64,000 nucleotides of DNA from a virus (lineage: Duplodnaviria; Heunggongvirae; Uroviricota; Caudoviricetes): IMG/VR virus record IMGVR_UViG_3300009515_000001; one strand, written 5' to 3'. Below, in pieces: positions 24,505 through 64,000 of the stretch. The position numbers and the translations under genes were made by a program. The notes beneath the pieces were generated by a model, which did not search any database, was not told the DNA's origin, and saw only the letters and a program-made list of their open reading frames with translations. Each line of letters opens with the position of its first letter. Within the stretch, counting starts at the first letter, position 1.

Positions 24505-25427
24505 AGATTCTATCATTATACTGTGGAGCTGGCGGATTAGATCAAGGGTTAAAGCAAGCTGGATTAAAAACAACACTTGCAATAGATTACGTTGAAGATT
24601 GTTGCAAGACAATAAAACTGAATCACCCCGATTGCGAAGTGATCTGTGGTAAGGTTTCAGACTATAAGGAATCTTTATCAAACTTTGATGTTATCGTTGG
24701 CGGTCCACCATGTCCTGAATTTTCAAATGCAAAAACAAACAAAACATTTGATCCAACAGAAGTAAATCATTTTTGGGATATAGTAGATAAGATAAAACCA
24801 AAACATCATTTGATGGAAAACGTTCCAGGTGTCATTAAGGTTTGTAAAAGACGTAACATGCTTTTAAATTGTGCCAACTACGGAACACCTCAAACTAGAA
24901 TAAGGCGGTTCTTTACAAACCTTCCAGCACCGGTTGAAACTCATTCTGAATTTCCGTCAAAAAAATTATTTGAGGGAGAAACAAAAAAATGGGTTTCAGT
25001 AAAGGATGCTTTAGGTATCGAGGGAACAATAGAAGATCGAAAGACTAGCTTCGGAGAAGGATTAAGAAAGTACAATGTAGAAAACCCATCAATAACATTG
25101 TTGGCTGATTCAAGATTATGGATCACACCAACAGGATTTAAGAAAAAAAACGAGAAGATGATCTCAAGATCCATAGATGAACCAGCACAAACGATCTTGG
25201 TTGCAGGATCATTCATGGTAACAGACAAACCACTTCACTCGGAAAAATATATCAAATACAAAAATGAAAACTACCAAAGTCGGAAGCTTACAAACGAAGA
25301 ACTGAAAATATTACAGGGATTCCCAAAGGAATACAAGTTTGTCGGTAATATTCAAAGTATAAAGCGGCAGATCGGAAACGCTGTTCCGTCACAGATAATA
25401 GAATCCTTTTTCAGACAAATAGCATGA
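24501..25427 (+). CDS. DNA (cytosine-5)-methyltransferase
   Basis: Motif I LYCGAGG, IV GGPPCPEFS, VI ENVPG, VIII QTRIRRFF, X GNAVP. Confidence 0.8.
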   Translation: MKILSLYCGAGGLDQGLKQAGLKTTLAIDYVEDCCKTIKLNHPDCEVICGKVSDYKESLSNFDVIVGGPPCPEFSNAKTNKTFDPTEVNHFWDIVDKIKPKHHLMENVPGVIKVCKRRNMLLNCANYGTPQTRIRRFFTNLPAPVETHSEFPSKKLFEGETKKWVSVKDALGIEGTIEDRKTSFGEGLRKYNVENPSITLLADSRLWITPTGFKKKNEKMISRSIDEPAQTILVAGSFMVTDKPLHSEKYIKYKNENYQSRKLTNEELKILQGFPKEYKFVGNIQSIKRQIGNAVPSQIIESFFRQIA

Positions 25428-25919: not shown

Positions 25920-26120
25920 TTGAGTGAATACTGTCCTATTTGTAATGAAAGACTTGCAAACTCGGATCATGTTATAAGGTGGATTCACGATATTATCAAA
26001 CATAGAAACTATTGGAAAGGTCAGACAGACGTTATGACAAAGAATCAGTTAAACGAAGTTCTATTTGAGATCATTGACTATTTTCATAAAAGAGAAAAGG
26101 ATGGAGTTGGAAGGATTTGA
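25920..26120 (+). CDS. small C2H2-like zinc-finger protein; 3' end overlaps tRNA on opposite strand
   Basis: CPICNERLANSDHVIRWIHDIIKH. Confidence 0.4.
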   Translation: MSEYCPICNERLANSDHVIRWIHDIIKHRNYWKGQTDVMTKNQLNEVLFEIIDYFHKREKDGVGRI

Positions 26121-26176
26121 ACCTTCGACCTCTAGCTCCCAAAGCTAGCTGGCTATCCAGACTACCGCACAACTCC
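26102..26176 (-). tRNA. tRNA-Pro (anticodon UGG)
   Basis: Minus-strand GGAGTTG acceptor stem pairs with CAACTCC. Anticodon stem CTAGC/GCTAG with loop TTTGGGA. T-arm GAAGG-TTCAAAT-CCTTC; D-loop AGTCTGGATA. D-stem has a C10-A25 mismatch and CCA is not encoded. Confidence 0.8.
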
Positions 26177-31804: not shown

Positions 31805-32992
31805 ATGTATAATGATGGGGTAATTGAAGAAGGGGGTTATGAAGAACGATCTGTTGTTTCCACTCCAGTAGGTTTAGTTGTACTGTTTTTAGGCGGTCTG
31901 ATCATTTTTACATTAATCACACTAGTATTAAAAAACCCAGTATGGACATGGTTCGACAACTTGATGATCCACGAAATTTTTGTAGATACAACAACTATGG
32001 ATCTAACAGACGAACAGGTAGAGGGGATTACCAATATGGCATTTGATTGGAATTGGATCTGGCAGGGATTTTTAATTTTAGTAGTAGTTATTATCATAGC
32101 AAAAGGCATTAGGATCATTAGACCAACTCATAGGGCGGCTGTTGAAACACTTGGGAAATATACTGGTTTTAAAAAATCAGGAATTACATACGTTCTGCCT
32201 TTCATTCAAAAGCTTTACGATGTAAATATCACAGATCAGTTGGTAGATGTTCAACGCCAAGAGGTAATCACAAAGGATAATCTTAACTGTAAAGTGGATG
32301 CACAGGTGTATTACAAGGTAGGAGAAACCGAATCTGAACTAAAAAAGGCATTATACAAGGTAAACAGCTATGAAAGACAGATTGTTCAGCTAGCTAGAAC
32401 CACTCTAAGAAACGTAATCGGTGATAATTTATTCAAAGATGTAAACTCTCAAAGGGGAAAACTTAACGTAGAAGTCTTTGAAACTATGGAAAAGGAAACA
32501 AGAGATTGGGGAATTAATCTGGTTCGTGTTGAATTAAAGGAAATTGAACCACCAGCAGACGTACAACAAACAATGAACATGGTTATCAAAGCAGAAAATG
32601 AAAAACAGTCAGCAATTGACTTTGCAAATGCAACAGAAACAAAGGCAGACGGTCAAAGAAGAGCAGAAATTAAGCTAGCAGAAGGAGAAAAACAATCACA
32701 AATACTAAAAGCACAAGGAGAAGCACAAGCTATAATTGCAGTTGCAGAAGCAAAAGCAAAACAAATTGAGTTGGTAAATAGTGCTGCAGATAAATATTTC
32801 AAAGGAAACGCACAGACTTTGGAGAAATTACAGGTTACAAGGGATTCACTTCAAATTAATACCAAGTATATTATGACAAAAGAAGGAATTACACCTACAT
32901 TGGTTGTTAATGAATCAGGTGAAAGTATAATTCCAATTAAAAAAGAAAGCCAAAAAAGTCAAATACATGAAGCTTATGAGGATATTCAGTAA
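31805..32992 (+). CDS. SPFH/band-7 (stomatin/prohibitin-like) membrane protein
   Basis: N-terminal TM, SPFH core (IRIIRPTHRAAVETLGKY...QVYYKV...), A/E/K coiled-coil tail. Confidence 0.75.
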   Translation: MYNDGVIEEGGYEERSVVSTPVGLVVLFLGGLIIFTLITLVLKNPVWTWFDNLMIHEIFVDTTTMDLTDEQVEGITNMAFDWNWIWQGFLILVVVIIIAKGIRIIRPTHRAAVETLGKYTGFKKSGITYVLPFIQKLYDVNITDQLVDVQRQEVITKDNLNCKVDAQVYYKVGETESELKKALYKVNSYERQIVQLARTTLRNVIGDNLFKDVNSQRGKLNVEVFETMEKETRDWGINLVRVELKEIEPPADVQQTMNMVIKAENEKQSAIDFANATETKADGQRRAEIKLAEGEKQSQILKAQGEAQAIIAVAEAKAKQIELVNSAADKYFKGNAQTLEKLQVTRDSLQINTKYIMTKEGITPTLVVNESGESIIPIKKESQKSQIHEAYEDIQ

Positions 32993-33654
32993 TGAGAATC
33001 GATACAAACTCCTGGCATTACAAAATGAATTACAGAAATTATGGTGATTCAATTCCCAAGAGTTTATGTCCTTATTTCTGGTCAACAGTTCTTTCAGTAA
33101 TTATGATCAGTTGGCTGTCTGCTTTATTTAACTTGATTGAAAAACAACATTGGCACTTACCAGAAGTAAATATTGGGATTTTTAATTTTCTCGGTAAACA
33201 TCGTATGGCTATGTTAATTGCTTTAAACGGAGGAGTTTTTTCAATGGGAGCTATAAGTTACTTTGGCTATGGGAATATTTCAGGGTTTTTTTCTATGGGT
33301 ATTGGTGCAGGAATGACAATTTTTATGCTCTTTTCAGATAGGATTTTCAAAGCAACTTCAAGAACCACATATAAAATTCCAGACAGAAACACACAACCAT
33401 CTATTTTTAAAGAGTTTGTAAAAGCCAAACATAAATCAGTTTGTCCAATGTTGGAGTTTGTAGATGTAAAAAAGGAAGAGTTTAACAAAAATGTAAAGAA
33501 AATCGGAGAGAAAGAATCACCAATAATCATATTCGATGATGTTTCATTTGAATTAGATAATCTTTCAGAAGATGATAAAAATATGTTAAACAGAAAATAT
33601 CAACAACAAAATTGGCGACCAAACCAAGTGGAGAGTGAAGCACACGAAAGTTAG
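32992..33654 (+). CDS. polytopic membrane protein
   Basis: ORF track; start overlaps stop of SPFH gene. Confidence 0.5.
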   Translation: MRIDTNSWHYKMNYRNYGDSIPKSLCPYFWSTVLSVIMISWLSALFNLIEKQHWHLPEVNIGIFNFLGKHRMAMLIALNGGVFSMGAISYFGYGNISGFFSMGIGAGMTIFMLFSDRIFKATSRTTYKIPDRNTQPSIFKEFVKAKHKSVCPMLEFVDVKKEEFNKNVKKIGEKESPIIIFDDVSFELDNLSEDDKNMLNRKYQQQNWRPNQVESEAHES

Positions 33655-44428: not shown

Positions 44429-44741
44429 GATTAACGTAACAGCTTATAAGATTAACGTAACAGCTTCTGGTGACGGTAAAAACAGGGATAAGCTAACAAG
44501 AAATTCTGATTATGTCGCACTACTAACCGAAAATTTTCATAAAAACGACAAATGCTTGGGTGAAATGCGAGATGCAAAAGCCATGAACATACCAATGTAT
44601 GCAATTGTAAAACATGGTGACATTATTCCAAAATGGATTTTACAAATGCCTTGGCGCAAAATGATTTACTTTAATGGTGAAGATGATATGCAGATAGTTG
44701 CAAAAATATTGATCAAAGAAATCCAAGAAGGAAAAAGATGA
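44421..44741 (+). CDS. small protein, possibly nucleoside 2-deoxyribosyltransferase-like fold; immediately upstream of C5-MTase
   Basis: SDYVALL...GEMRDAKAMNIPMYAIV loosely fits the D..A.l...G..E.G.A.a.g.P family pattern; weak. Confidence 0.4.
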   Translation: MDKINVTAYKINVTASGDGKNRDKLTRNSDYVALLTENFHKNDKCLGEMRDAKAMNIPMYAIVKHGDIIPKWILQMPWRKMIYFNGEDDMQIVAKILIKEIQEGKR

Positions 44742-45527
44742 AATGTTTTTCATTGTTCACAGGTATAGGCGGTTTCGATCTTGCATTAAAAAATTTAGGG
44801 CATGAGATTGTAGGTGCATGTGAAATTGACAGAAACGCTAGACGAGTTTATTCCGAACACTTCCCAAATGTCCGAATCTGGGAAGATGCTACAAAAATTA
44901 ATCCAAGAGAACTCCCCGATTTCGATCTCCTTTGTGCAGGATTTCCTTGCCAATCTTTTTCAATCGCTGGAAAAAGGAGAGGATTCGATGATCTACGAGG
45001 CACAGTATTTTTTGAAATTGCAAGAATCGTTAAAGAAAAACGGCCTAAACTACTTTTGCTTGAAAACGTTGCAGGGATTCTCAATCACGACAAAGGGGAA
45101 ACGTTCCAAATTATCCTCGAAACGCTTTCTGAATTACGGTATTGTATCCAATGGGAAGTGCTTGACAGCAGATATTTTGTTCCACAAGCAAGGAAACGTA
45201 TCTTCATTATTGGAAATCTTGGAGAAGAACCCATCAGAAAAGTATTACCTATCGGAGAAATATCTGACTTATTTGAAAAGGAATCTACCACCTACCTCCC
45301 TTCACTTACTGCAAGTGACTACAAAGGACCGAGTAAACAACGTATCGCCAACATCATTGTCGAAGAAGAAAGTTAGAGTTAGAAGATTAACACCATTAGA
45401 GTGTGAAAGATTACAAGGACTGCCTGATAATTACACTGATTTGATTGCAGATGGTCCAAGATGGAAAGCACTTGGAAACTCCGTTACGATACCTGTGGTT
45501 GAGTATGTAGTTAAAAACATAAGCTAA
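44738..45527 (+). CDS. DNA (cytosine-5)-methyltransferase interrupted by a 1-nt frameshift near 45350-45370
   Basis: Frame 1 (44738-45376): motif I FTGIGGF, IV FPCQSFS, VI ENVAG, VIII QARKR. Frame 2 continues RRLTPLECERLQGLPD ... GNSVTIPV (IX/X). Shift lies in the GAAGAAGAAAG run. Confidence 0.7.
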
Positions 45528-45806: not shown

Positions 45807-46262
45807 ATGAGAATTGAAAGATCATGGGCTATGCCAAGCCATGAAACATTCAGTATTTTACCAATAAAGAAACTAATTAAAGAAGAACTTGGTGATTCTT
45901 ACATTGATCCTTTTCCATATCCGTTCAAAAGAGATGCCTTAGAATATCTAAAGACATTTGAAACTGAATCAGTTGGCAAACTAGCATTTGATCCACCATA
46001 TTCAGTTAGACAGCTTAAAGAAAAATACTCAAAAGCTGGTCTAAGTTATGAAACACGACCTACATACTGGAAAAACCTAAAGCAAGAGATCTCTCGAATT
46101 ATCAAACCAGGTGGCAAAGTAGTATCATTTGGTTGGAATAGTGGTGGTATTGGTATAACTTTGGGCTTTGAAATAACAAGAATACTTCTGGTAGCTCATG
46201 GTGGAATACACAACGATACGATCTGCACCGTTGAACGAAAGATTCAAGAACGATTAATGTAA
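45807..46262 (+). CDS. short DPPY-motif protein resembling the core of a beta-class N6A/N4C DNA methyltransferase
   Basis: LAFDPPYS followed by IIKPGGKVVSFG (post-IV RvLKpgG-like motif). Only 151 aa, possibly truncated. Confidence 0.45.
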   Translation: MRIERSWAMPSHETFSILPIKKLIKEELGDSYIDPFPYPFKRDALEYLKTFETESVGKLAFDPPYSVRQLKEKYSKAGLSYETRPTYWKNLKQEISRIIKPGGKVVSFGWNSGGIGITLGFEITRILLVAHGGIHNDTICTVERKIQERLM

Positions 46263-46409: not shown

Positions 46410-47111
46410 TTGAAAACAATTCCCAACGATCACAAATCTGAAGCTGGTAAGTGGTATGATTTCGATGGACAGATTAAAGTCGAGGAAGTTGAAAAGGATT
46501 TTGACCAGTATGATCACAACGAAAAACAACCAGTTTATAGAATCTCACTAAAAATCCCATCAAAATATGCAGTTGGAATTCATAAAAAAGAATGTGTAAT
46601 TAGCGGCGTAGAAAGGAATTGGGCTACATATTACTATCAAGGTTTGAGTGATCCAATACCAAAAGCCATGATGAACATGTCCTCAAAAATTCGGGATTTA
46701 AATCGTCAGCTAAATGAACTAAAACAAAGAAACCACGCACTAGAATTACACTTTACAAGAACAAGATTTGAAGAAGATTTAGAGTATTCCCGAAGGAAAA
46801 AAGAAAAAGAGGAATGTCAATATTGTTACAAAGAGATTGAAAAAACAAAACAGATTGAAGGAAGAGATTGGTTCTACCTAAACGAAGATGGAATCATGCA
46901 CATTAATTGCGGTGTAAAATGCTTTGATTCAATCTGTACTGAATGTAACGCAGTCTTTGAAGCAGATTATTGTGAAGAAGATGGTTGTCCAAACTGTGAC
47001 GGAAGAATGAGATCTGCAAAGAAAAAAGAGATTAAGGAACATCTTGTGTATAACGCAATCAAACGTTACCTTCCAAATGAGCTACAAAACAAAGTAGTAA
47101 TGAAAGAATAG
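46410..47111 (+). CDS. Cys-rich multi-zinc-finger protein
   Basis: CQYCYKE...CGVKC...CTECN...CPNCDG. Confidence 0.5.
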   Translation: MKTIPNDHKSEAGKWYDFDGQIKVEEVEKDFDQYDHNEKQPVYRISLKIPSKYAVGIHKKECVISGVERNWATYYYQGLSDPIPKAMMNMSSKIRDLNRQLNELKQRNHALELHFTRTRFEEDLEYSRRKKEKEECQYCYKEIEKTKQIEGRDWFYLNEDGIMHINCGVKCFDSICTECNAVFEADYCEEDGCPNCDGRMRSAKKKEIKEHLVYNAIKRYLPNELQNKVVMKE

Positions 47112-47154: not shown

Positions 47155-48912
47155 ATGATAATTGGGCATGACTTTGATAATAAAGCGATAAATATCGATG
47201 TTCAGCGTGTTGTGGAAGGAAGGTTGCTTTTCCAAGCCAACAGTGGCGGTGGTAAAAGCTACGCATTAAGAAAGTTTTGTGAGGTCACTCATGGTAAGGT
47301 TCAGCAGATCATTTTAGATGTAGAAGGTGAGTTTGCTTCACTTAGGGAGAAATTTGACTATATTTTAGTTGGAAAAGAAGGTGACATACCAGTTAACCTA
47401 AGAGCTTCAGAACTTTTGGCAAAAAGATTGTTAGAACTTAATACTTCAGCAATTATAGATCTTTATGAGCTAAAACACCATGAAAGGAAAAGATTTGTTA
47501 GAAATTTCCTAGATTCATTAATTAATTCACCAAAAGAGCTTTGGCACCCTTGTTTAGTTATAATTGATGAATGTCACATCTTTGCACCTGAAAAGACAAG
47601 TGGAGAATCAGAATCTCTTGATTCTGTAAAAGATTTAGCTACAAGGGGAAGAAAACGAGGATTTGCATTGGTAGCTGCAACACAAAGGCTTTCAAAGTTG
47701 AACAAAGACGTAGTTGCAGAACTAAATACAAAACTAATCGGTAGAAGCTCTCTTGATGTGGATATGAAACGTGCGGCATTTGAGCTTGGTTTTACCGATA
47801 AAAAAGATGTTTTGTCACTTAGAAATATGAACAAGGGAGAATTTTATGCTTTTGGACCTGCATTAACCAATGAAGTAACAAAAATAATGGTTGATAATGT
47901 TTTGACAACACACCCTGAAGCTGGTAAAACATACCAGAAAACCAAATCAGCGCCTGCTGAAAAAGTAAAAAGAGTGCTTGAAAAACTCAAAGATCTACCT
48001 GTTGAAGCAGAAGAAGAACTAAAGACACATGAAGATCTAAAGAGAAAAATTATCGAGTTAAAACGTGAAATTACAACTCTAAAACGAGCAAAACCCACTC
48101 AAAAAATAGATGAAAATCTGTTAAAAGAGCATTATGAAAGAGGCTATAAAGATGCTACAAAGCAAAGAAATGATAAATTACCAAGTATGATTAGGAGTAT
48201 TAACAGTGAATTAAAGGCAATCAACACTTTAAAACGACAAACTGAAATAACTTTAAAGAAATCTAACGAGAATCTTAGCTACATTCTTGGTTCAATGGAA
48301 TCATTAAAGCAAGTTTCAACACCTAAACAAAGAAAAATTAATTTAAAACCAGCACCATTAGGTTATGTAGGTAGTGTAGTTGCAACACAAGTTGGAATTC
48401 CACTTATTAAACAAACACCAGAACTAGAATCAGAATCAGAAATTGGAGCAGGACCAATAAAGATACTAAACGCAATAGCACAGTTTGATCCAAATCCAAT
48501 CTCTATTTATCAAACAGGAACTTTTGCTGGATATTCAGTTGGTTCAGGAACATGGACTAACTATATTTCAATACTAAAAAAGAATTATTTGATTAACAAA
48601 ACAGGTAAAATGCTAAGTTTAACTGAACAGGGAAGGGAAATGACAAAAGATATTGAACCACTTCCAACAGATCCAGATTCATTACTTCACATTTGGAAGA
48701 ATAAACTTCCAGCTGGACCAGCCAAGATCTTACAAGTTTTGTTTGATAATTATCCAGATTCAATAGAAAGGACTGAACTTGCAGATAGATCGGGATATTC
48801 TTTTGGTTCAGGAACATGGACAAATTACATATCCATTCTTAGAAAGAATCACCTAATAGAAGATGATTCGGGAAATTATAAGGTATCAAAAACTTTGTTT
48901 CCACTTCAATAA
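47155..48912 (+). CDS. HerA/FtsK-superfamily (DUF87-like) P-loop ATPase with two C-terminal repeated winged-helix-like modules
   Basis: IGHD...RLLFQANSGGGKSY (Walker A), VIIDECH (Walker B), ATQRLSKL. Repeats GYSVGSGTWTNYISILKKNYLI and GYSFGSGTWTNYISILRKNHLI. Confidence 0.7.
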   Translation: MIIGHDFDNKAINIDVQRVVEGRLLFQANSGGGKSYALRKFCEVTHGKVQQIILDVEGEFASLREKFDYILVGKEGDIPVNLRASELLAKRLLELNTSAIIDLYELKHHERKRFVRNFLDSLINSPKELWHPCLVIIDECHIFAPEKTSGESESLDSVKDLATRGRKRGFALVAATQRLSKLNKDVVAELNTKLIGRSSLDVDMKRAAFELGFTDKKDVLSLRNMNKGEFYAFGPALTNEVTKIMVDNVLTTHPEAGKTYQKTKSAPAEKVKRVLEKLKDLPVEAEEELKTHEDLKRKIIELKREITTLKRAKPTQKIDENLLKEHYERGYKDATKQRNDKLPSMIRSINSELKAINTLKRQTEITLKKSNENLSYILGSMESLKQVSTPKQRKINLKPAPLGYVGSVVATQVGIPLIKQTPELESESEIGAGPIKILNAIAQFDPNPISIYQTGTFAGYSVGSGTWTNYISILKKNYLINKTGKMLSLTEQGREMTKDIEPLPTDPDSLLHIWKNKLPAGPAKILQVLFDNYPDSIERTELADRSGYSFGSGTWTNYISILRKNHLIEDDSGNYKVSKTLFPLQ

Positions 48913-48946
48913 AATTAAAAACAAGTAATACAAAGAATCTAACAGT

Positions 48947-51076
48947 TTGAGGCTGGAAAATCGTACAATTTTGATCGGAGATGTGATGGAAAAGATTAAA
49001 GAGATTCCAGACAGTACAGTTGATTGCGTTATAAGTAGCCCACCTTACTGGGCACTGCGAGATTACGGAACAGGAAAGTGGGTTGGTGGTAACAACCCTA
49101 ACTGTCAGCATGAAGCTATACGTCACAAAACAAGAGATGAAAGAAAATCAAATGCTTGGATGGAAGAAAAATTAACTGAAGGAACATACGGTGATGAATT
49201 CAAGTGGAAAGCAAGAAGATGCCCTGATTGTAACGCTGAATATACGGACTTGCAGTGGGGTTTAGAACCTGATTTCAAAGATTATTTAAAAAAATTAGAT
49301 GATTTAATGGAACAATTACGCAGGGTTCTAAAGGATACAGGTTCAATCTGGATTAATTTAGGTGACACTTACTCTTCTTCTGGTAGTGGAACAAACTCAA
49401 AAACCACTGGATTGCATGGAAAAGATTGCAAATGCCAGACATGTGTAGCAACTCATGGAACTTCTTATTATAGAAAGGGCTTAAACTATATTCAAACCAA
49501 AAGCAGGATAGGAATTCCTGAAAGATTTTACATAAATTGTATTGATAAGGGATTCATAGCACGTAATCATATTCCCTGGATTAAACCAAACGCCATGCCA
49601 AGTTCAGTTCAAGATCGTTTTACAAACAAATGGGAATCAGTTTTCTTCTTTGCAAAGAAGCAAAAGTATTACTTTAACCTAGACGCTGTTCGGGAAAAGA
49701 CTATCACTGAATTAAAGCCACCAAAAGAAAAAACAAAAACAAAACTGAAACCATTATTTGATAATACTGAAAACGAACCAGATCGAAAGATGTTAGATGT
49801 TCCTGGTCAACCAACTCATTCAATTCACAAGAGAAGAGAACAAGGATTATCAGATTATGAAGAAAAGGGAAATCATCAACCAGAAGGAAGATCACATTTT
49901 GGAACAGGATCAGACATCAAACAAAACATGTTAAAGGCAAGATTCAAACAAAGAGAACTAAACAAGGCACAAGATCAATACACACAAAGAATCCTAGAAG
50001 CTAGGGCAGAAGGAGCTGGACATGACAATCCACTTGGAAATCCAATGGGTAAGAATCCTGGCGATGTGTTTGTAGAACAAAATGATGATTCAAGATGGCG
50101 TAAACACTTTGATGAAAATGGAAATTGTTACGGTTGTGGGAAACATTATACAAAACATACAGTAAAAAATAGAGCACAGGGATCTGAAAATAGGGATCAA
50201 AGACAACAAGATGGGTACTGCTGGTGTAACCCTCAAGGAAAAAATCCTGGAGATGTAATCTACGACAAATCAAAACCTTATTCAGTTGTCGAAAGATTTG
50301 GAGAAGTAATTTACAGAAAACTTCCAGCTCACGATGCTTTGAGAGAATATCTAAACGAATCACGAAACAAAGAGGGAATTACAATAGATTACATTGAAGA
50401 GTATTTTGGCAACCAAGCAGGACATCATTGGTTTGAAAAAAACGGATCTTACCCAAGTGTTTCAGACTGGCTAAAACTGAAAAAACTGCTAAAATTAGAC
50501 AATACTTATGATGACCAATTACTAACAGAATACACAAAGCCAGCAGAAAAGCAGAATGATCCAAGAGGAAAGAATCCTGGTGACGTATTCATAATAAACA
50601 CAAAACCCTTCACATCAGCCCATTTTGCAACTTTCAACCTTGATCTTCCACTAAAAATACTGAAATGTTCATGCCCACAAAATGTATGCAAGAAATGTGG
50701 AAAGCCAAGAGAAGCAATATGGAAGAGGGCTTCCTTGCAGGATACAACAGATGAGTGTGAGTTAAAGATTGAAAAATCTCAATACAAACTTGGAAAATCA
50801 TCAGCATTACGATTGAGTGGCGGTGGAGATACGTATAACGCATGGAAAGCTGAAAACCCTGACGAGTTAGTTGGTTACACTGATTGTGGTTGTCATCAAG
50901 GGTATGAACCAGGTGTTGTACTAGATCCTTTCTTCGGTTCTGGAACTGTTGGAGTTGCTGCAGAAAAATTAGGATTAAACTGGATAGGCATTGAAATCAA
51001 TCCGCAATATGTTTCAGAAATTATAACAAAAAGACTTGATAAACACAAAAACGAAAGGATGACTGAATTCTTTTGA
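48947..51076 (+). CDS. beta-class (SPPY) N4C/N6A DNA methyltransferase, unusually long (709 aa), with triplicated GKNPGDV motif and a Cys-cluster insertion
   Basis: ILIGDVMEKIKEIPDSTVDCVISSPPYWALRDY (motif IV); HFATFNLDLP (HPAxFP-like); VLDPFFGSGTVG (motif I); three copies of G-K-N-P-G-D-V. Confidence 0.8.
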   Translation: MRLENRTILIGDVMEKIKEIPDSTVDCVISSPPYWALRDYGTGKWVGGNNPNCQHEAIRHKTRDERKSNAWMEEKLTEGTYGDEFKWKARRCPDCNAEYTDLQWGLEPDFKDYLKKLDDLMEQLRRVLKDTGSIWINLGDTYSSSGSGTNSKTTGLHGKDCKCQTCVATHGTSYYRKGLNYIQTKSRIGIPERFYINCIDKGFIARNHIPWIKPNAMPSSVQDRFTNKWESVFFFAKKQKYYFNLDAVREKTITELKPPKEKTKTKLKPLFDNTENEPDRKMLDVPGQPTHSIHKRREQGLSDYEEKGNHQPEGRSHFGTGSDIKQNMLKARFKQRELNKAQDQYTQRILEARAEGAGHDNPLGNPMGKNPGDVFVEQNDDSRWRKHFDENGNCYGCGKHYTKHTVKNRAQGSENRDQRQQDGYCWCNPQGKNPGDVIYDKSKPYSVVERFGEVIYRKLPAHDALREYLNESRNKEGITIDYIEEYFGNQAGHHWFEKNGSYPSVSDWLKLKKLLKLDNTYDDQLLTEYTKPAEKQNDPRGKNPGDVFIINTKPFTSAHFATFNLDLPLKILKCSCPQNVCKKCGKPREAIWKRASLQDTTDECELKIEKSQYKLGKSSALRLSGGGDTYNAWKAENPDELVGYTDCGCHQGYEPGVVLDPFFGSGTVGVAAEKLGLNWIGIEINPQYVSEIITKRLDKHKNERMTEFF

Positions 51077-52149: not shown

Positions 52150-52893
52150 ATGGAGTGTAAACTAATGTCAAAAACTGAAAAAGCTGTGCTAAGAAAAGTA
52201 ATTGAAGCTTACACAAGAGATGTGGGAAGGGGAGTTTGCAGGTTAGATTATGACACTATGGACATGCTAGATATTGCAACAGGTGATCCGTTAAAACTAA
52301 AAAACAAGGATACGGTCACTGGTGCAAAGGCATTACCACTTTATCCATCAGACGAAGGAAAGGATATTGTAAGAATTGATGGTTTGTTAAGACAGAATCT
52401 TCATGTTCAAGTAGGACTTCCAATAGAAATTACAAAGACAGAAGCTTCACCAGCCCAAGAATTAACACTATTCCCACTTCGAGAGATCCCACCATTAGAA
52501 GAAAAATACATAGCTGATGCTTTGGAAAGTGTTCCTGTAACCAAAAATGATATTGTCAACGTTCCTTATTTCGGGGGAAGATTAGAGTTTAAAGTTAAAA
52601 AAACAATACCAAACGGTATAGTGGTTATTACACAAGTGACTAAAGTAAACCTAATCATTGAAGATCTTCCTGACGAGTTGGATGATTATGAAAAATATAT
52701 TACAAGAGAGAGAAATAAATTATTACGTGATGTTAAAAAACAGATCAAAGATTCATTAGTAAAGAAAGATTTTGCAAGGATACAAGAACTTTCATCATTT
52801 TATGAAAAAAAGATTGATGATTTAGAATCAACATGGAGGATTGCAAGACACATCTTACAGAAAAAAGAAGATAGTGATAATAATGTGTCCTAA
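52150..52893 (+). CDS. stand-alone CDC48/VCP N-terminal-domain-like protein (double-psi barrel) without AAA modules
   Basis: VIEAYTRDVGRGVCRLDYDTMDMLDIATGDPLKL...GKDIVRIDGLLRQNLHVQVGLPIEI matches the CDC48_N pattern. Confidence 0.55.
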   Translation: MECKLMSKTEKAVLRKVIEAYTRDVGRGVCRLDYDTMDMLDIATGDPLKLKNKDTVTGAKALPLYPSDEGKDIVRIDGLLRQNLHVQVGLPIEITKTEASPAQELTLFPLREIPPLEEKYIADALESVPVTKNDIVNVPYFGGRLEFKVKKTIPNGIVVITQVTKVNLIIEDLPDELDDYEKYITRERNKLLRDVKKQIKDSLVKKDFARIQELSSFYEKKIDDLESTWRIARHILQKKEDSDNNVS

Positions 52894-59959: not shown

Positions 59960-61263
59960 TGGCATTAGAAGAAGTGGGTGAAGAGATAGTTGAACAGGAT
60001 ATTGAAGCTAAGATACAAGCTAAGGCAGTTGAAAAGAAGAAGGCTTTCACTGGAGTAAAGACAACTCTCTTTAAAGATCCTCGTGATGGTCAACGCTATC
60101 CAATACCTGTATCGATGTCACCAATGCCAACGGTAGATCGTATCCTAACCTATTCAGCAAGGACAGGTTTCTGTGGTATCTTGTGCATTGGAATGTCAGG
60201 CACTGGAAAGAGTACACTTGCCAGATTCTTGGTCCATCAACTGCACCAAAAGAAGAACTTTAACATTCACTGGTATGAGAGAGATGACATTCAAAGGCTG
60301 GACAAGATCATAGCCAGCTTGCAGAAGGGGTTGGACCATATCATAGTGATGGATGACGCTTCATTCAGTTTAGAACAACTGAAACGTGAGGACATTACCA
60401 AGATTGCACAGAAGCTTACCTACGTTAGACACGATGTTAGAGGACAGGTGATAGTGATAATGAATATACATTATTCTAAAGCAATTTCCAGGTTCTTTAG
60501 GAACGTTCCATTCGCTTTCCTCACTTCAATCACACAAGAAGAAGTACATACATTCCAAGATGTTTGGCCTCATGGTAGGTGGAAGTTCAAAGACTTTGCA
60601 TGGTATTACCAACAGATGATGTTCACAGATAAGTGGACATTCGATGTTGATAGGTGGGAGAACAAGACCATGACGTATAGAACAGATGATCCTTTCAGAC
60701 TTGGACTAGCTATGGAAGGGAACTACATACACTTCATAGTGTATTTAAAAGATGGTTGTACTTTATGCGATGCACAATTTGATATAAAGAAGATAGTAAA
60801 TAGTAAAGAGTTGGTTGATTACTTTGTCAAGTCATACGGATTACCTAGAGCAAGAAGTATACTGAACCTCTATGCCTTTACTAAGCATGGACAGAAGGCA
60901 TTAGATTCAAACAGACAGGCTATCTGGAATAGCATAGCAGACTTTGATAAGAACAATAAGATTAACTGGGTGAATGTTGTGCAGGAATTACGTAAGACAT
61001 TGAAGAGTAGAAGAAGAACCTATGTAAAGAAGTCTGTACTAAAAGAGAACGCAGAACAACTTGAAGATCTACCCGAAGGTGATCCTGAATTGGAACGTGT
61101 CAAGACAGAACAGGAGTTAGAACTACAAGAACAACTAGCAGACTTGGAAGAGAACCAAGACAAAGTAATACCTATGGGATATGATCCTGATACATCAAAC
61201 CCTAATCAAATGCCATACGGTGAGGAAGAAATAGACAGGCAACTTGATCAAGATAACCAATGA
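59959..61263 (+). CDS. P-loop NTPase (SF3-helicase-like or A32/FtsK-like ATPase); candidate replication or packaging protein
   Basis: Walker A GMSGTGKST, Walker B HIIVMDDAS, downstream VIVIMNIHY (motif C-like Asn). Confidence 0.6.
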   Translation: MALEEVGEEIVEQDIEAKIQAKAVEKKKAFTGVKTTLFKDPRDGQRYPIPVSMSPMPTVDRILTYSARTGFCGILCIGMSGTGKSTLARFLVHQLHQKKNFNIHWYERDDIQRLDKIIASLQKGLDHIIVMDDASFSLEQLKREDITKIAQKLTYVRHDVRGQVIVIMNIHYSKAISRFFRNVPFAFLTSITQEEVHTFQDVWPHGRWKFKDFAWYYQQMMFTDKWTFDVDRWENKTMTYRTDDPFRLGLAMEGNYIHFIVYLKDGCTLCDAQFDIKKIVNSKELVDYFVKSYGLPRARSILNLYAFTKHGQKALDSNRQAIWNSIADFDKNNKINWVNVVQELRKTLKSRRRTYVKKSVLKENAEQLEDLPEGDPELERVKTEQELELQEQLADLEENQDKVIPMGYDPDTSNPNQMPYGEEEIDRQLDQDNQ

Positions 61264-61274
61264 TCTATATTCAG

Positions 61275-61397
61275 TTAGTGATACCAAGTAGTGATAATAA
61301 TTTATCATTTTTATTATCACTTAGATCTATTTTCAGTTAGTGATAATGTAGACCACTAGTGATAACAAGTAGTGATAACCTGGAAGGTAGTGATACC
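61275..61397. repeat. cluster of 6 direct plus 1 inverted TAGTGATA(A/C) iteron-like repeats, ending in palindrome CCTGGCAACCAGG
   Basis: Read directly from sequence. Confidence 0.75.
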
Positions 61398-61487
61398 TGG
61401 CAACCAGGCGCACAATTATTTTTGTATTTTTCTGACAACAATTTTTCAGTTACGTGCCTGTAATAATTTTCAGTTATAATTTTTTAG

Positions 61488-61554
61488 TGGTTAACATATT
61501 GTTGGTTAACATATTGTTGGTTAACATATTGTTGGTTAACATATTGTTGGTTAA
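61488..61554. repeat. 4.5 tandem copies of 15-mer GGTTAACATATTGTT
   Basis: Read directly from sequence. Confidence 0.9.
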
Positions 61555-61799
61555 CTACCTAAGATTAATCTTAATTCAATCTTAGAATTTATACCTAGAT
61601 TTATTTAATAAATAAAATACCTTGATCTTTAATCTTAAATTAAGATCTGAAATTTCAGATAATCATTTTATATTAAAATCTGAAAAGCTGAAATTTTTTA
61701 AAGTCTGTAATTTACGCCTAAGCATTTTTAGATATACCCTTTTTGTATGTTCATTTAAACACACAAGTGATTTATTAATATACGTACATATTTAAAATT

Positions 61800-63026
61800 A
61801 TGAATGAGGATACCACAAGATCCAACAATAACCCAACTAATGAAAATTCATCTAATGAAAATTCAGTTTCTGAAAATTCAGATCACAAATACAATCCATC
61901 AAAAGATCACTTAGAAATTTGTGAACCATGCAGAATAGAAAAGAAAAGAAAAAATGATCTATACTATGCAAACAATAAGGATAAAGTTTTAGCTAAAAGA
62001 AAAGCTGAACGTGAACAAAAATTATCTAAGTTGAATAAAGCAATTAACGATCCAAATAAAACAACTTTAACAAAAGACGATCTACATTTAGCAAACACGA
62101 TCCCGATCCAAGAAATAGATCCACAAAACTATATGTTAAAACAAACAACTAAGTTTATTTTTCCAAAAGGATCTGAAAATCTTTTGAAAAAATATTCAAT
62201 GAAAAAAGTATCTAAAGGATTAATTTTATTTGGTCATGCTGGAAACGGTAAAACCGAGCTTCCAAAACAATGGTCTATTAAAAATAAAGTGCCTAATGTT
62301 TTTCTAAGTTGTCATAACGATATTAGATCAACCGATCTTCTTGGATCTTTTTCACTTAAAGAAGGTTCAAGCGTTTTTGTATTAGGAAAAATAATTGAAG
62401 CTATCGAGATCGCAAACAAACATAGTTCTAAACAATGTGTTTTAGTTCTTGATGAGATTAACACAATGGATAATAATGTTCAAAAGATCTTAAACACTAA
62501 TTTAGATTTCAGATCTGGAATTAATATTCCATTGGTTAACAAACAATATAGATTAAACGATGAATCAAAAATAATCGTTGTAGCTACAATGAACCCTAGT
62601 TCTTATAGTGGCACATATCCATTAAACTTAGAACTAAATTCAAGGTTCGACTTTAAAGAAATTAAAACCATGCCAGATAAATTAATTAAAGATCTTTTAA
62701 AGTCAAAAAACATCGATGAAAAAACAATCGAATCTTTATTGATTACACAAAAAGAATTATTGAAAGCTTTTGAAGCTGATAAGATACAACAACCGATCGA
62801 TCCAAGAGGATTATTAAAATTTGCAGAAGATTATAATCTAAACAAAACTGAATTTAAAATGGATCATTCAGAAGCTTTGCAAGAAGCTTTAGAATTAACT
62901 TTAGTTGGTAGATACCTAGACAATAAAGAAGATCTCAAATTTGTAAATGAAATTATAGAATCTAATTTCAGCTTTGAAGATCCAGAAGTAAACGAACAAA
63001 CAGAAAAAGAAGATAACGAACAATAG
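61800..63026 (+). CDS. AAA_5-type (MoxR/McrB-like) ATPase
   Basis: Walker A GHAGNGKTE, Walker B LVLDEINTMD, sensor VVATMNP, arginine finger SRF. Confidence 0.7.
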   Translation: MNEDTTRSNNNPTNENSSNENSVSENSDHKYNPSKDHLEICEPCRIEKKRKNDLYYANNKDKVLAKRKAEREQKLSKLNKAINDPNKTTLTKDDLHLANTIPIQEIDPQNYMLKQTTKFIFPKGSENLLKKYSMKKVSKGLILFGHAGNGKTELPKQWSIKNKVPNVFLSCHNDIRSTDLLGSFSLKEGSSVFVLGKIIEAIEIANKHSSKQCVLVLDEINTMDNNVQKILNTNLDFRSGINIPLVNKQYRLNDESKIIVVATMNPSSYSGTYPLNLELNSRFDFKEIKTMPDKLIKDLLKSKNIDEKTIESLLITQKELLKAFEADKIQQPIDPRGLLKFAEDYNLNKTEFKMDHSEALQEALELTLVGRYLDNKEDLKFVNEIIESNFSFEDPEVNEQTEKEDNEQ

Positions 63027-63038
63027 GAGATCTAAAAA

Positions 63039-64000
63039 TTGTCTATACAAAATTCCCAAAAAATCGATCCTTCTTCTGATGATTCATTAAAAGAATTTTC
63101 AGAAGAAGATCGAAAATTTGTTTTAGATTTTATTAGTATGTTTTCAGCAATTAAAAATAAACCATTAAAAATATTTTTCAATAATAATTCAGGTAAGCAT
63201 TTTATTACTTATAATAAATATGAAAAAGAATATCAGATCTATACAGATCCTTATGATGAAAAAATTTATTGGAAAACTGCGATCGAGCATGAAGTAAGCC
63301 ATTTATTATTTGATACAAAATTCGATTCATTCAAAAGATATGCTAATGAAATAATTTCTAATTGTCCTTATGAATTAAGATCAATTAGTTTCAAAAGTAT
63401 TCACACGATCTATAATGTGTTTGAAGATATGAGGATCGAATCATGGTTCGGAAAATACAAACAAGGATTTAGAAAAAGAATAATTCAAACTAGAAAATCA
63501 TTAGGAAAAGATCCGCAAATAGTAAAAGGCGATCCAGATAATCCAATTTCAGCTTTATTATATTCTAGATTTTTTAGAAACGATTTAGTAAGATTATCTA
63601 ATTTTAAAGTGTGTGAAGATTACATAAACAAATCTGAATTTATTAACCCTAAAGGATCAATTCTTTTAGTTAAAGATTTTTACGATAAAGTTTTTCTACC
63701 ATTCTTAAAAGAACAAAAAGAAAAACAAAAGGAAAAAGAAAAACAAAAAGAGAATCAAAAAAATGAAACTGAAAATTCAGATCCAAAAGGAACTGAAAAT
63801 TCAAAAGATGATTCAAATAAAAAACAATCAGAAGATCAAAAAGATAATTCAGACAATGAAGATCCAGAAGATAAAGATCCAGAAGATAAAGATCCAGACT
63901 TTAACGATTTAGATTCTGATGATTCAGATAACGATTTAGATTCTGATGATTCAGATAACGATTTAGATTCTGATGATTCAGATAACGATTTAGATTCTGA
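63039..64000 (+). CDS. partial CDS (runs off window): HExxH-motif protein with Asp/Ser-rich acidic repeat tail; possible metallopeptidase-like partner of the AAA_5 ATPase
   Basis: TTG start 63039; AIEHEVSHLL (HExxH); frame stays open to window end. Confidence 0.5.
   Translation, partial: MSIQNSQKIDPSSDDSLKEFSEEDRKFVLDFISMFSAIKNKPLKIFFNNNSGKHFITYNKYEKEYQIYTDPYDEKIYWKTAIEHEVSHLLFDTKFDSFKRYANEIISNCPYELRSISFKSIHTIYNVFEDMRIESWFGKYKQGFRKRIIQTRKSLGKDPQIVKGDPDNPISALLYSRFFRNDLVRLSNFKVCEDYINKSEFINPKGSILLVKDFYDKVFLPFLKEQKEKQKEKEKQKENQKNETENSDPKGTENSKDDSNKKQSEDQKDNSDNEDPEDKDPEDKDPDFNDLDSDDSDNDLDSDDSDNDLDSDDSDNDLDS
63906..64000. repeat. 3.5 tandem copies of 27-nt GATTTAGATTCTGATGATTCAGATAAC (encodes DLDSDDSDN repeats)
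   Basis: Read directly from sequence. Confidence 0.9.

What the first reader, a model, noticed from the sequence alone, without database searches (positions are those of the whole stretch)
47155..51076. HerA/DUF87-like ATPase with duplicated wH-like tail, followed by a 709-aa MTase with triplicated GKNPGDV motif and Cys-cluster insert
The ATPase (Walker A NSGGGKS, Walker B IIDECH) ends in two near-identical 22-aa modules (GYS[VF]GSGTWTNYISIL[KR]KN[YH]LI), plausibly DNA-binding. The downstream beta-class MTase is about twice the usual length. The normally single kNPgDVw motif that precedes the HPAxFP segment occurs three times, at roughly aa 365, 430 and 545. An 80-aa insertion with CSCPQNVCKKCGKP...CGCH Cys ligands sits before motif I (VLDPFFGSGT).

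The juxtaposition could be a coupled ATPase-MTase module, for example packaging-linked methylation or a defence/anti-defence system. It could equally be coincidental adjacency of a packaging ATPase.
Basis: partly seen in the sequence, partly recalled or inferred. Interest (0 to 1): 0.6.

Follow-up and report, generated by a model that had tools for sequence, protein, structure and literature searches.

The report
Modular viral methylase beside DNA-pump ATPase
Two neighbouring genes of an uncultivated virus-like element linked to marine ammonia-oxidising archaea are real and each unusual: a DNA methylase whose DNA-recognition slot holds three stacked modules, and a DNA-motor ATPase with twin DNA-binding tails. 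They do not form a conserved two-gene system.

Summary

**ATPase (47155-48912).** It has a minimal FtsK/HerA-superfamily P-loop domain, a coiled coil, and two winged-helix (wH) domains. This layout is shared by more than 2,800 proteins from phages, prophages, plasmids and archaeal elements. The two recognition segments co-vary within each protein and are kept alike by selection on the protein. This suggests a DNA translocase that loads at a specific site.

**MTase (48947-51076).** It is an orphan beta-class amino-methyltransferase with an SPPY motif, so probably N4-cytosine. Its target-recognition slot holds three different units, each closed by GKNPGDV: a loop-type unit, a Cys-rich unit Z, and a helical unit H. 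Homologues carry one to five such units in shuffled orders. Minimal enzymes carry only Z or only H. The Cys insert occurs across the subfamily and is shared with haloarchaeal-virus and mycobacteriophage MTases.

**The pairing.** Direct adjacency holds only in relatives with at least 75% ATPase identity. It is lost at 65-67%. Only 6 of 161 ATPase loci have an adjacent beta MTase. The window itself carries at least five MTase-like genes. The coupled-module idea is therefore not supported.

The packaging-motor reading is unlikely for the family, because members sit next to canonical TerL genes.

The parts
47155..48912 (+). Gene for a 585-aa FtsK/HerA-superfamily ATPase with a coiled coil and a twin winged-helix tail
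   Evidence: ORF. Pfam DUF87, Zot and HTH_45. More than 2,800 homologues with the same architecture. AF2 mean pLDDT 82.6.
47155..47904 (+). P-loop ATPase domain (aa 1-250): Walker A GGGKS 31-35, Walker B DE 138-139, nearly invariant TRGRKRG 163-169
   Evidence: Invariant columns. Foldseek matches to HerA 9x1m and 4d2i, and to STIV2 B204 (TMt 0.76). Matches to viral packaging-type NTPases.
47959..48309 (+). Long helices or coiled coil (aa 269-385), followed by a disordered linker (aa 386-427)
   Evidence: AF2 secondary structure and pLDDT. This region is variable in length and sequence across the family.
48448..48654 (+). Winged-helix domain 1 (aa 432-500), recognition segment GYSVGSGTWTNYISILKKNYLI
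   Evidence: HTH_45 at aa 468-501. Sso10a-like match. pLDDT above 90.
48673..48894 (+). Winged-helix domain 2 (aa 507-580), recognition segment GYSFGSGTWTNYISILRKNHLI
   Evidence: AF2. Identity between the two recognition segments is 0.68 within a protein and 0.48 between proteins. Of the 19 identical residues, 10 use different codons.
48947..51076 (+). Gene for a 709-aa orphan beta-class amino-DNA methyltransferase (SPPY, probably N4-cytosine)
   Evidence: PF01555 at 134.7 bits. phrog_67. Foldseek core matches to CcrM, RsrI, PvuII, MboIIA and the A. vaga N4CMT.
48947..49726 (+). Catalytic half (aa 1-260): motif IV SPPY 31-34, Cys/His cluster C53/H55/C92/C95, motif VIII region ESVFFFAKK
   Evidence: Invariant columns in A2. 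PDB alignments. pLDDT.
49727..50068 (+). Unit 1 (aa 261-374): charged segment with one long helix, ending ...ARAEGAGHDNPLGNPMGKNPGDV (motif copy 1 at 50048-50068)
   Evidence: Similar '...AR..G.DHD....NP.GKNPGDV' ends occur in other homologues.
50069..50257 (+). Unit 2, 'Z' (aa 375-437): Cys-rich segment WRKHFDENGNCYGCGKHYTKH...CWCNPQGKNPGDV (motif copy 2 at 50237-50257)
   Evidence: Conserved module in 18 or more homologues. It is the sole slot occupant in minimal enzymes such as P0229. No Pfam or PDB match.
50258..50587 (+). Unit 3, 'H' (aa 438-547): beta-hairpin plus helical domain ...HHWFEKNGSYPSVSDWLKLKKLL..., ending GKNPGDV (motif copy 3 at 50567-50587, the canonical copy before HFATF)
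   Evidence: pLDDT 80-94 for aa 460-530. Module HMM map. Found in 133 clusters among 1.84 billion representatives, essentially all inside beta MTases. No Pfam or PDB match.
50588..50896 (+). Motif-X segment HFATF (aa 559-563) followed by the Cys insert (C574, C576, C581, C584 ... C647, C649)
   Evidence: A2 consensus KILKCACPxxVCxKCGxP...CxCN. Shared with phiCh1 and phiH N4C MTases and with mycobacteriophage MTases.
50897..51073 (+). AdoMet-binding half (aa 651-709), motif I VLDPFFGSGT
   Evidence: PDB sequence matches to CcrM, MboIIA and M.BceJIV. pLDDT 86-94.
45807..46262 (+). Context: 151-aa DPPY methylase-like gene, which lies directly upstream of the ATPase in the close relatives
   Evidence: phrog_11619 at 8e-34. 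Order 151-aa gene, ATPase, long MTase, 86-aa gene is conserved in L001 and L002.

Best explanation
These are two independent genes in the DNA-modification region of an uncultivated virus-like element. The element has 33% GC, nearly all genes on one strand and at least five MTase-like genes. Its closest genomic relative is a contig binned to a Nitrosopumilaceae archaeon.

**(1) The MTase.** The 709-aa protein is an orphan beta-class amino-methyltransferase. Its SPPY motif points to N4-cytosine. It most likely methylates the element's own DNA to escape host restriction.
- Its length comes from its target-recognition slot, between motif VIII and the beta6/motif-X segment. The slot holds three different units in tandem: a loop-type unit, a Cys-rich unit Z and a helical unit H.
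- Each unit ends in the framework motif GKNPGDV. A further Cys-cluster subdomain sits before motif I.
- Inferred: the units were stacked by out-of-register recombination between paralogous or co-infecting MTase genes at the conserved motif.
- Inferred: each unit is kept because it contributes DNA binding or recognition.

**(2) The ATPase.** The 585-aa protein belongs to a very large, uncharacterised family carried by mobile elements. The family layout is a minimal FtsK/HerA-type ATPase, a coiled coil and two winged-helix domains.
- The two recognition segments are kept alike by selection.
- Inferred: the wH pair reads a repeated DNA site and loads a ring translocase there, in the manner of FtsK-gamma/KOPS or TraB/TRS.
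- Its biological role is not settled. It probably acts in DNA processing at the junction of replication, recombination and the late phase, or in establishment of the element.

**(3) The adjacency.** It is a feature of one shallow lineage, not a conserved functional module.
For: **Shown for the MTase.**
- Family, motif order and fold are established.
- The motif occurs three times, and the three copies differ at synonymous sites.
- The internal copy 2 is present in 45 of 63 aligned homologues and is at least 90% conserved at G, K, N, P, G and D.
- Architectures found include *, Z*, H*, *H*, *Z*H*, Z*Z*, H*Z* and **H*H**. Relatives at 65% identity or more already differ in architecture.
- Minimal 390-400-aa enzymes have only Z or only H in the slot.
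- H folds confidently in the AF2 model. It is confined to beta MTases, in 133 clusters of 1.84 billion representatives, some in tandem H-H.
- In CcrM the equivalent stretch, beta6 plus Loop-6E, contacts DNA phosphates and the target base (PMC6787082).
- The Cys insert is shared with phiCh1 and phiH N4C MTases and with mycobacteriophage MTases.
- MTase homologues sit in viral-type contigs beside other orphan MTases.

**Shown for the ATPase.**
- The architecture is conserved in 40 of 40 aligned homologues.
- The fold is established.
- The two wH recognition segments co-vary within proteins. Of the identical residues, 10 of 19 use different codons.
- Hosts range from Nitrosopumilaceae, DPANN archaea and CPR bacteria to Proteobacteria and Acidobacteria.
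- Contexts include a Mu-like element, loci with TerL, integrase and RusA, and plasmids.

**Shown for the adjacency.**
Against: - No experiment bears on either protein.
- In the AF2 model unit 1, unit Z and all three motif copies have low confidence. Whether Z and unit 1 fold or bind DNA is therefore inferred from conservation only.
- H is about as conserved as the catalytic core (0.62 against 0.67). This is unlike a hypervariable specificity domain.
- The order 151-aa DPPY gene, ATPase, long MTase survives flank rearrangements in three genomes. A lineage-specific functional link therefore cannot be excluded.
- No terminase, portal or capsid gene was recognised in the 64-kb window. A packaging role in this particular element is not excluded.
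- The host assignment rests on one binned MAG contig.
Confidence: 0.6

Rival explanations
1. The ATPase and the MTase work together. For example, a translocase might carry or load the methylase along viral DNA, or the pair might form a defence or anti-defence module.
For: - The gene order is conserved in the window, L001 and L002 despite rearranged flanks.
- Matching contig lengths suggest that three further contigs (21,960, 17,924 and 17,389 bp) also carry both genes.
- The gap between the genes is 34 nt, with no terminator-like site.
- 46 of 161 ATPase loci (29%) have some DNA MTase within 5 kb. The figure is 42% when radical-SAM DUF5131 is counted.
- Clavibacter plasmid pCSL1 has a C5 MTase 2 kb from its homologue.
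- The ATPase domain matches the PADLOC mad8 model of the methylation-associated MADS system at 6e-13.
Against: - Adjacency is lost at 67% identity, at 65% (L087) and at 50% or below.
- Only 6 of 161 loci have an adjacent beta MTase, and only three of these are outside the window's own clade.
- Neighbouring MTases belong to three unrelated classes. They lie on either side at -3.8 to +4.3 kb.
- The intergenic distance varies from 34 to 287 nt among close relatives.
- The window carries at least five MTase-like genes, so chance adjacency is likely.
- The mad8 model was built from PDB-derived HHpred alignments, and the match scores no better than generic HerA models. It shows superfamily-level similarity only.
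Confidence: 0.12
2. The ATPase is the genome-packaging motor of a non-tailed, membrane-containing type of virus. Its wH pair would recognise the packaging signal.
For: - The ATPase domain resembles STIV2 B204 (TMt 0.76), the Haloarcula virus PH1 ATPase (TMt 0.77), a Corticoviridae NTPase and A32-like ATPases.
- The best PHROG hit is labelled 'terminase large subunit' (phrog_2666, 1e-18).
- No TerL, portal or capsid gene was detected in the window.
Against: - Family members lie 1.5-3.9 kb from canonical TerL genes, which carry both the TerL_ATPase and TerL_nuclease domains, in five loci.
- Members also occur in a Mu-like element, next to integrases and on plasmids.
- HerA matches are as good as or better than the packaging-ATPase matches.
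- Known packaging ATPases of this clade are single-domain proteins of about 200-250 aa encoded next to the capsid gene. That is not the case here.
- The window covers only 64 kb of a 92.9-kb contig, so a terminase may lie outside it.
Confidence: 0.12
3. The extra GKNPGDV copies and the stretches between them are functionally inert. They would be recombination scars or flexible linkers tolerated in a surface loop.
For: - AF2 gives pLDDT below 50 around all three motif copies, most of unit 1 and much of Z.
- No Pfam or PDB relatives were found for any unit.
- Unit content changes quickly among close relatives.
Against: - The internal motif copy is conserved at 90% or more across 45 sequences, as strongly as the catalytic motifs.
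- The three copies differ at synonymous sites, so they are maintained at the protein level.
- Z and H are conserved over 50-110 aa. Each can be the only occupant of the recognition slot in minimal enzymes.
- H is predicted to fold with pLDDT up to 94.
Confidence: 0.15
4. The ATPase is a replication initiator or helicase. Its wH pair would bind origin repeats.
For: - It lies in replication and recombination neighbourhoods: Cdc6/Orc two genes upstream, PriL nearby, RusA, and Gam and GemA.
- Twin wH domains with matched recognition helices would suit iteron binding.
- A repeat-rich 540-bp non-coding stretch exists at 61263-61800.
Against: - Mu-like elements replicate by transposition and need no such initiator.
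- The relative L002 carries a different repeat (a 32-bp unit) downstream of its nSTAND ATPase gene, although its wH recognition segments are nearly identical to the window's.
- No primase or polymerase partner is consistently linked.
Confidence: 0.15

Closest known systems
Beta-class N4/N6 amino-DNA methyltransferases (PF01555): CcrM, M.RsrI, M.MboIIA, M.PvuII; closest in sequence are the putative N4C MTases of haloarchaeal viruses phiCh1 and phiH and mycobacteriophage MTases
   Same: - Motif order IV (SPPY), recognition slot, motif X (HFATF), motif I (FGSGT).
- Rossmann-type core fold.
- The segment GKNPGDV...HFATFP...CxxC...CxxCG is shared with phiCh1, phiH and mycobacteriophage enzymes.
   Different: - The recognition slot is expanded to about 290 aa.
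- It holds three unrelated units, each ending in its own copy of the framework motif.
- H and Z units are absent from all 50,697 cultured or deposited phage records searched, from Pfam and from the PDB.
Multispecific C5-cytosine MTases of Bacillus phages (SPR, phi3T, rho11s), with tandem target-recognising domains (Trautner and colleagues; cited from PMC7544214 refs 86-87 and from my own knowledge)
   Same: - Phage-borne orphan MTases.
- Several short recognition modules sit in tandem in the variable region.
- Module number and order differ between relatives.
   Different: - A different enzyme class: C5 against amino-MTase.
- Here every unit carries a conserved 7-aa framework motif.
- Multispecificity is untested here.
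FtsK (gamma domain/KOPS) and Streptomyces TraB (wHTH/TRS): ring DNA translocases directed by C-terminal winged-helix domains (own knowledge)
   Same: An FtsK-HerA-superfamily P-loop motor, a linker and C-terminal wH DNA-reading domains. Carriage by mobile elements resembles TraB.
   Different: - No PF01580 FtsK_SpoIIIE match and no N-terminal membrane anchor.
- Two wH domains per chain rather than one.
- The ATPase domain is a minimal 250-aa HerA/DUF87 type.
HerA helicases (HerA-NurA repair; SIR2-HerA, DUF4297-HerA and Nezha defence systems)
   Same: These are the best sequence and structure matches for the RecA-like core.
   Different: - It lacks the N-terminal HAS-barrel and helical domains.
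- NCBIfam HerA scores reach at most 48 bits against cut-offs of 800-970.
- There is no NurA, SIR2 or DUF4297 partner gene nearby.
Packaging NTPases of membrane-containing viruses (STIV2 B204, PRD1 P9 / corticovirus type, A32-like)
   Same: The ATPase core has similar size and fold (TMt 0.72-0.78).
   Different: - It carries 335 extra residues: a coiled coil and twin wH domains.
- It is not next to a capsid gene.
- Family members coexist with TerL terminases.

Membership tests
Beta-class amino-DNA methyltransferase (PF01555 N6_N4_Mtase) | Profile score above the curated cut-off | tested here: met
   134.7 bits against 26.7, matched in two stretches split by the insert.
Beta-class amino-DNA methyltransferase (PF01555 N6_N4_Mtase) | Circular order: motif IV (D/N/S-P-P-Y/F/W), then the recognition region, then motif X, then motif I (FxGxG) | tested here: met
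   SPPY at aa 31-34, HFATF at 559-563, FFGSGT at 661-666. Order as defined in PMC7544214.
Beta-class amino-DNA methyltransferase (PF01555 N6_N4_Mtase) | Core fold like solved beta-class enzymes | tested here: met
   Foldseek matches to CcrM 6pbd (7e-9), RsrI, A. vaga N4CMT, MboIIA and PvuII.
N4-cytosine-specific subgroup | Produces N4-methylcytosine | not testable with these tools
   The only indications are the SPPY motif, source labels on relatives ('cytosine-N4-specific', P0175) and the phiCh1 annotation.
Type II restriction-modification system | A cognate restriction endonuclease gene next to the MTase | tested here: not met
   The neighbours are the ATPase and small ORFs without nuclease matches. 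Homologues sit beside other MTases in viral contigs. The enzyme is therefore an orphan.
FtsK-HerA superfamily of P-loop ATPases | Walker A and Walker B motifs in a RecA-like core resembling HerA, FtsK and packaging ATPases | tested here: met
   GGGKS and DE are invariant. DUF87 scores 28.4 bits against 23.2. Foldseek E values are 1e-12 to 1e-9.
HerA proper (DSB-repair or defence HerA) | Full-length match including the HAS-barrel and helical domains, and a partner nuclease or effector gene | tested here: not met
   NCBIfam HerA models score 15-48 bits against cut-offs of 800-970, and only over aa 75-240. The ATPase core starts at residue 1. No NurA, SIR2 or DUF4297 gene is nearby.
FtsK/SpoIIIE-TraB translocases | PF01580 motor domain and an N-terminal membrane anchor | tested here: not met
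   No PF01580 hit at E of 0.01 or better. The only related match is the weak phrog_1358 'FtsK/SpoIIIE-like' at 2e-4. The AF2 model has no N-terminal segment before the ATPase core.
FtsK/SpoIIIE-TraB translocases | C-terminal winged-helix domain that reads a DNA motif | tested here: inconclusive
   Two wH domains are present, and their recognition segments co-vary. DNA binding itself cannot be tested here.
Viral genome-packaging ATPase (terminase, or A32/B204/P9 type) | It is the only packaging-type ATPase of the element and is linked to capsid genes | tested here: not met
   Relatives co-occur with canonical TerL, sit in a Mu-like element and occur on plasmids. No capsid gene was recognised nearby. 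For this element itself the result is inconclusive, because 29 kb of the contig was not seen.
Conserved ATPase-MTase two-gene system | The pair is kept as neighbours across the family | tested here: not met
   6 of 161 loci have an adjacent beta MTase. Adjacency is lost at 65-67% identity.

The most novel reading that the evidence does not exclude
The MTase is a multispecific amino-methyltransferase. Z, H and the loop-type unit would be alternative target-recognition modules. Each would carry its own copy of the beta6-framework motif GKNPGDV. H even repeats the following '..KP[YF]..' segment. Any one unit could then dock on the catalytic core and present a different DNA target. This would be the amino-MTase counterpart of the multispecific C5 MTases of Bacillus phages, with unit number (1-5) tuned by recombination at the motif.
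Probability: 0.15. Interest if true: 0.7.

Novelty: new variant of a known kind. Interest (0 to 1): 0.4.

Why it matters
If the stacked, motif-terminated units set specificity or processivity, this family would show how viral amino-methyltransferases widen their protection against restriction by shuffling modules. That would also offer a natural scaffold for engineering MTase specificity.

The ATPase family is large, spread across bacterial and archaeal mobile elements, and uncharacterised. Its matched twin winged-helix readers give a concrete, testable handle: find the DNA site, then test site-directed translocation.

The negative result also has value. The tempting ATPase-MTase 'system' is a shallow-lineage adjacency and should not be entered in catalogues of defence or anti-defence systems.

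Tried and rejected
- **Source contig.** The lookup through P0001 found nothing on record. The remaining 29 kb could therefore not be checked for a terminase or capsid gene.
- **Twin-wH tail alone.** A search with this segment returned nothing. This is probably a limit of the word index for short queries, so alternative fusions of the tail remain unknown.
- **Units H, Z, unit 1 and the Cys insert.** Pfam and PDB searches gave no significant matches.
- **PADLOC mad8 (MADS) hit.** I considered it as support for a methylation-linked ATPase. I rejected it as specific evidence because the MADS models were built from PDB-derived HHpred alignments and the score equals that of generic HerA models.
- **Literature.** Searches for DUF87 with phage and winged helix, for FtsK-HerA with prophage and winged helix, for the peptide motif, and for multispecific N4/N6 MTases found no description of either feature.
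- **Promoter and terminator scan.** It gave no signal above shuffled controls and does not cover archaeal promoters.
- **Tandem repeats as wH targets.** The related genome L002 carries a different repeat (a 32-bp unit) downstream of its nSTAND ATPase gene, yet has nearly identical wH segments. No link could be made.
- **Recent duplication or gene conversion.** This was rejected for both the wH segments and the MTase motif copies because of synonymous differences.
- **2A-like or intein-like readings of 'NPGD'.** These were considered from memory and dropped: there is no NPGP and there are no intein blocks.

Full report
**1. Observation**

The region holds two plus-strand ORFs separated by 34 nt: 47155..48912 (585 aa) and 48947..51076 (709 aa, TTG start).
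- In the ATPase, Walker A is NSGGGKS and Walker B is IIDECH.
- Two 22-aa segments lie at aa 459-480 and 547-568 and are 19/22 identical.
- In the MTase, GKNPGDV occurs exactly three times, at aa 368-374, 431-437 and 541-547.
- A Cys cluster (C574...C649) lies between HFATF and motif I, VLDPFFGSGT.

**2. Setting**

The window has about 33% GC. Nearly every ORF of 120 aa or more is on the plus strand, and most large proteins have no Pfam or PHROG match.

It carries at least five MTase-like genes: 10143-10703, 24501-25427, 44738-45527, 45807-46262 and 48947-51076.

Syntenic relatives are 75-87-kb metagenomic contigs (L001, L002). The closest hit in a species-level genome set is a contig binned to a Nitrosopumilaceae archaeon. 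Its ATPase is 64-65% identical and it shares five other genes with the window.

I read the window as a virus-like element of marine ammonia-oxidising archaea. The host call rests on binning alone.

**3. The ATPase**

*Family matches.* Pfam gives DUF87/HerA (aa 11-122), Zot (weak) and HTH_45 (aa 468-501). PDB sequence search, NCBIfam and PADLOC hit only the core of HerA proteins, far below the family cut-offs.

*Predicted structure.* The AF2 model has mean pLDDT 82.6. It shows:
- a RecA-like domain at aa 1-250;
- long helices at aa 269-385;
- a disordered linker;
- two winged-helix domains at aa 432-500 and 507-580.

*Structural neighbours.* Foldseek places the core with HerA (1e-12). It matches packaging NTPases of membrane-containing viruses about equally well: STIV2 B204 at TMt 0.76, Haloarcula virus PH1, a corticovirus and A32-like enzymes. 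The HAS-barrel and helical domains of true HerA are absent.

*Family size and range.* More than 2,800 database proteins share the full architecture. All 40 aligned members have both wH domains. Carriers include DPANN archaea, CPR bacteria, Ignavibacteria, Acidobacteriota, Proteobacteria and Actinobacteria plasmids.

*The twin wH segments.* The two recognition segments co-vary within each protein. Examples are GTWIQYISTL twice, GTFQAYLSEL twice, and GAYMNILGKL with GAFSNMLGNL. Mean identity is 0.68 within a protein and 0.48 between proteins. In the window gene, 10 of the 19 identical residues use different codons. The likeness is therefore kept by selection on the protein, not by gene conversion. 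The simplest reading is that both domains read the same half-site of a repeated DNA target. By analogy with FtsK-gamma/KOPS and TraB/TRS (my own knowledge), the family would be site-directed translocases. That step is inferred.

*Genomic contexts.*
- A short Mu-like element, after Gam and GemA.
- Archaeal elements with PriL or Cdc6.
- Temperate-phage regions with integrase, RusA, HNH and canonical TerL 1.5-3.9 kb away.
- Plasmids.

The coexistence with TerL argues against a packaging role for the family. For this element it remains possible, because no terminase or capsid gene was recognised and 29 kb of the contig was not available.

**4. The MTase**

*Identity.* PF01555 scores 134.7 bits. 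The motif order (SPPY, slot, HFATF, FGSGT) and Foldseek matches to CcrM, RsrI, PvuII, MboIIA and the rotifer N4CMT make it a beta-class amino-MTase. SPPY and the labels on relatives suggest N4-cytosine. No nuclease gene is adjacent, so it is an orphan.

*The three stretches are different.* The stretches that end in GKNPGDV are unrelated to one another. Across 120 homologues the motif occurs 0-5 times. The stretches fall into conserved types:
- H, about 110 aa (KPYAVVEREG...LPxHDEIREYL...HHWFEKDGSYPTREDW...);
- Z, about 60 aa (WRKHYDENGNCLGCGK...WCNP);
- several shorter types, including the '...AR..G.DHD..NP' end seen in unit 1.

*Shuffled architectures.* An HMM map gives *, Z*, H*, *H*, *Z*H* (the window), Z*Z*, H*Z*, **H*H** and others. 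Relatives at 65% identity or more already differ. Minimal 390-400-aa enzymes have only Z (P0229) or only H (P0167) between motif VIII and the motif. These units therefore occupy the class-beta recognition slot.

*Position in a solved structure.* In CcrM the homologous 'SDW' strand is beta6. The following Loop-6E contacts DNA phosphates and the target base (PMC6787082).

*The internal motif copies are under selection.* The three copies differ at synonymous sites. Copy 2 is present in 45 of 63 aligned sequences and is at least 90% conserved.

*Predicted structure.* AF2 has mean pLDDT 64.
- It models the core and H (aa 460-530, pLDDT 80-94, helical) with confidence.
- Unit 1, Z and the motif copies themselves are not modelled with confidence.

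*Rarity of H.* A whole-library search finds H in only 133 clusters of 1.84 billion. Essentially all are inside beta MTases, and some carry H-H tandems. H, Z and unit 1 have no Pfam or PDB relatives and are absent from deposited phage genomes.

*The Cys insert.* By contrast, it is a known subfamily trait shared with phiCh1, phiH and mycobacteriophage MTases.

*Reading.* I infer that units were stacked by out-of-register recombination at the motif. This is comparable to the tandem recognition domains of multispecific C5 MTases and to 'domain movement' in Helicobacter MTase genes (my own knowledge). I infer that the units are retained because they contribute DNA binding. Whether they confer several specificities is open.

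**5. Are the two genes a module?**

Direct adjacency is seen in the window, L001 and L002, all at 75% ATPase identity or more. The order 151-aa DPPY gene, ATPase, MTase, 86-aa gene is preserved there despite rearranged flanks.

It is absent in more distant relatives:
- at 67% identity, where the MTase lies more than 8 kb away on the same contig;
- at 65% identity (L087);
- at 50% identity or below.

Among 161 ATPase loci:
- 30 have a beta MTase within 5 kb, at positions from -3.8 to +4.3 kb;
- 11 have a C5 MTase;
- 9 have a Dam-type MTase;
- 32 have a DUF5131 radical-SAM protein;
- only 6 have an adjacent beta MTase.

MTase homologues sit with other orphan MTases and without the ATPase. With at least five MTase-like genes in this genome, incidental adjacency is the economical reading. 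A loose regional association with DNA-modification genes exists, but it could not be tested against a proper null.

**6. Verdict**

The coupled-system interpretation is not supported.

What remains of interest is twofold. The first is an undescribed modular, motif-terminated expansion of the recognition slot in a small group of viral beta MTases. The second is a very large uncharacterised ATPase family of mobile elements with co-varying twin winged-helix readers.

Novelty: new variant of a known kind. Interest: 0.4.

Noticed in passing
window 44738-45527 (also L001 6890-7685, L002 5965-6754): The C5-cytosine MTase is split over two overlapping frames. Motifs I-VIII end at ...GAA GAA GAA AGT TAG. 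Motifs IX-X continue in the +1 frame (GTT AGA GTT AGA AGA TTA = VRVRRL). The same split, with different nucleotides (GAA GAA GGT TAG A), occurs in related genomes. This points to a conserved +1 frameshift or a two-subunit (M.AquI-like) enzyme rather than a sequencing error.
   Followed up: partly
window 61263-61800: A 540-bp non-coding stretch lies between an nSTAND/DUF815-type ATPase gene and a MoxR-like AAA gene. It is packed with repeat families: TAGTGATA about 7 times, TTTTCAGTTA about 4 times, and a perfect 15-mer TGGTTAACATATTGT 4.5 times. It looks like an origin or a regulatory region.
   Followed up: partly
window 10143-10703, 24501-25427, 44738-45527, 45807-46262, 48947-51076: The 64 kb holds at least five DNA-methyltransferase-like genes of different classes. 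This is an unusually heavy anti-restriction load.
   Followed up: partly
window 52150-52893: A 247-aa protein consists of the CDC48 N-terminal double domain (CDC48_N 5e-19, CDC48_2 1e-13) with no AAA ATPase domain, followed by a charged helical tail. It might be a decoy or adaptor for the host Cdc48/proteasome system.
   Followed up: no
window 31805-33654: An SPFH/Band-7 protein (2e-35) is followed by a membrane protein (phrog_944). This is a stomatin-type pair carried by the element.
   Followed up: no
window 26102-26176: A tRNA-Pro (TGG) gene lies on the minus strand of a genome that otherwise codes almost entirely on the plus strand.
   Followed up: no
window 63902-64000: A perfect 27-bp tandem repeat (3.7 copies, TAACGATTTAGATTCTGATGATTCAGA) runs into the end of the window.
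   Followed up: no
L003 1-14000 (JGI 3300025408 Ga0208462_1000001, 2.3-Mb contig): An ATPase homologue (42% identity) is the last large gene of a short Mu-like element (repressor, Ner-like, MuA, MuB, Gam, GemA). A few small ORFs and a LexA-like gene follow, then the host genes uppS-bamA-skp-lpxD. No late genes are present. This is either a truncated prophage or a small Mu-like element with the ATPase as cargo.
   Followed up: partly
161 ATPase loci (L007-L163): DUF5131 (PF07505, an uncharacterised radical-SAM-superfamily protein) is the most frequent conserved neighbour of the ATPase family. It occurs in 32 loci and is directly adjacent in 5.
   Followed up: partly
window 46410-47111: A 233-aa protein with a coiled coil and Cys-rich, zinc-finger-like segments lies between the 151-aa DPPY gene and the ATPase in this genome only. 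It has no family match.
   Followed up: no
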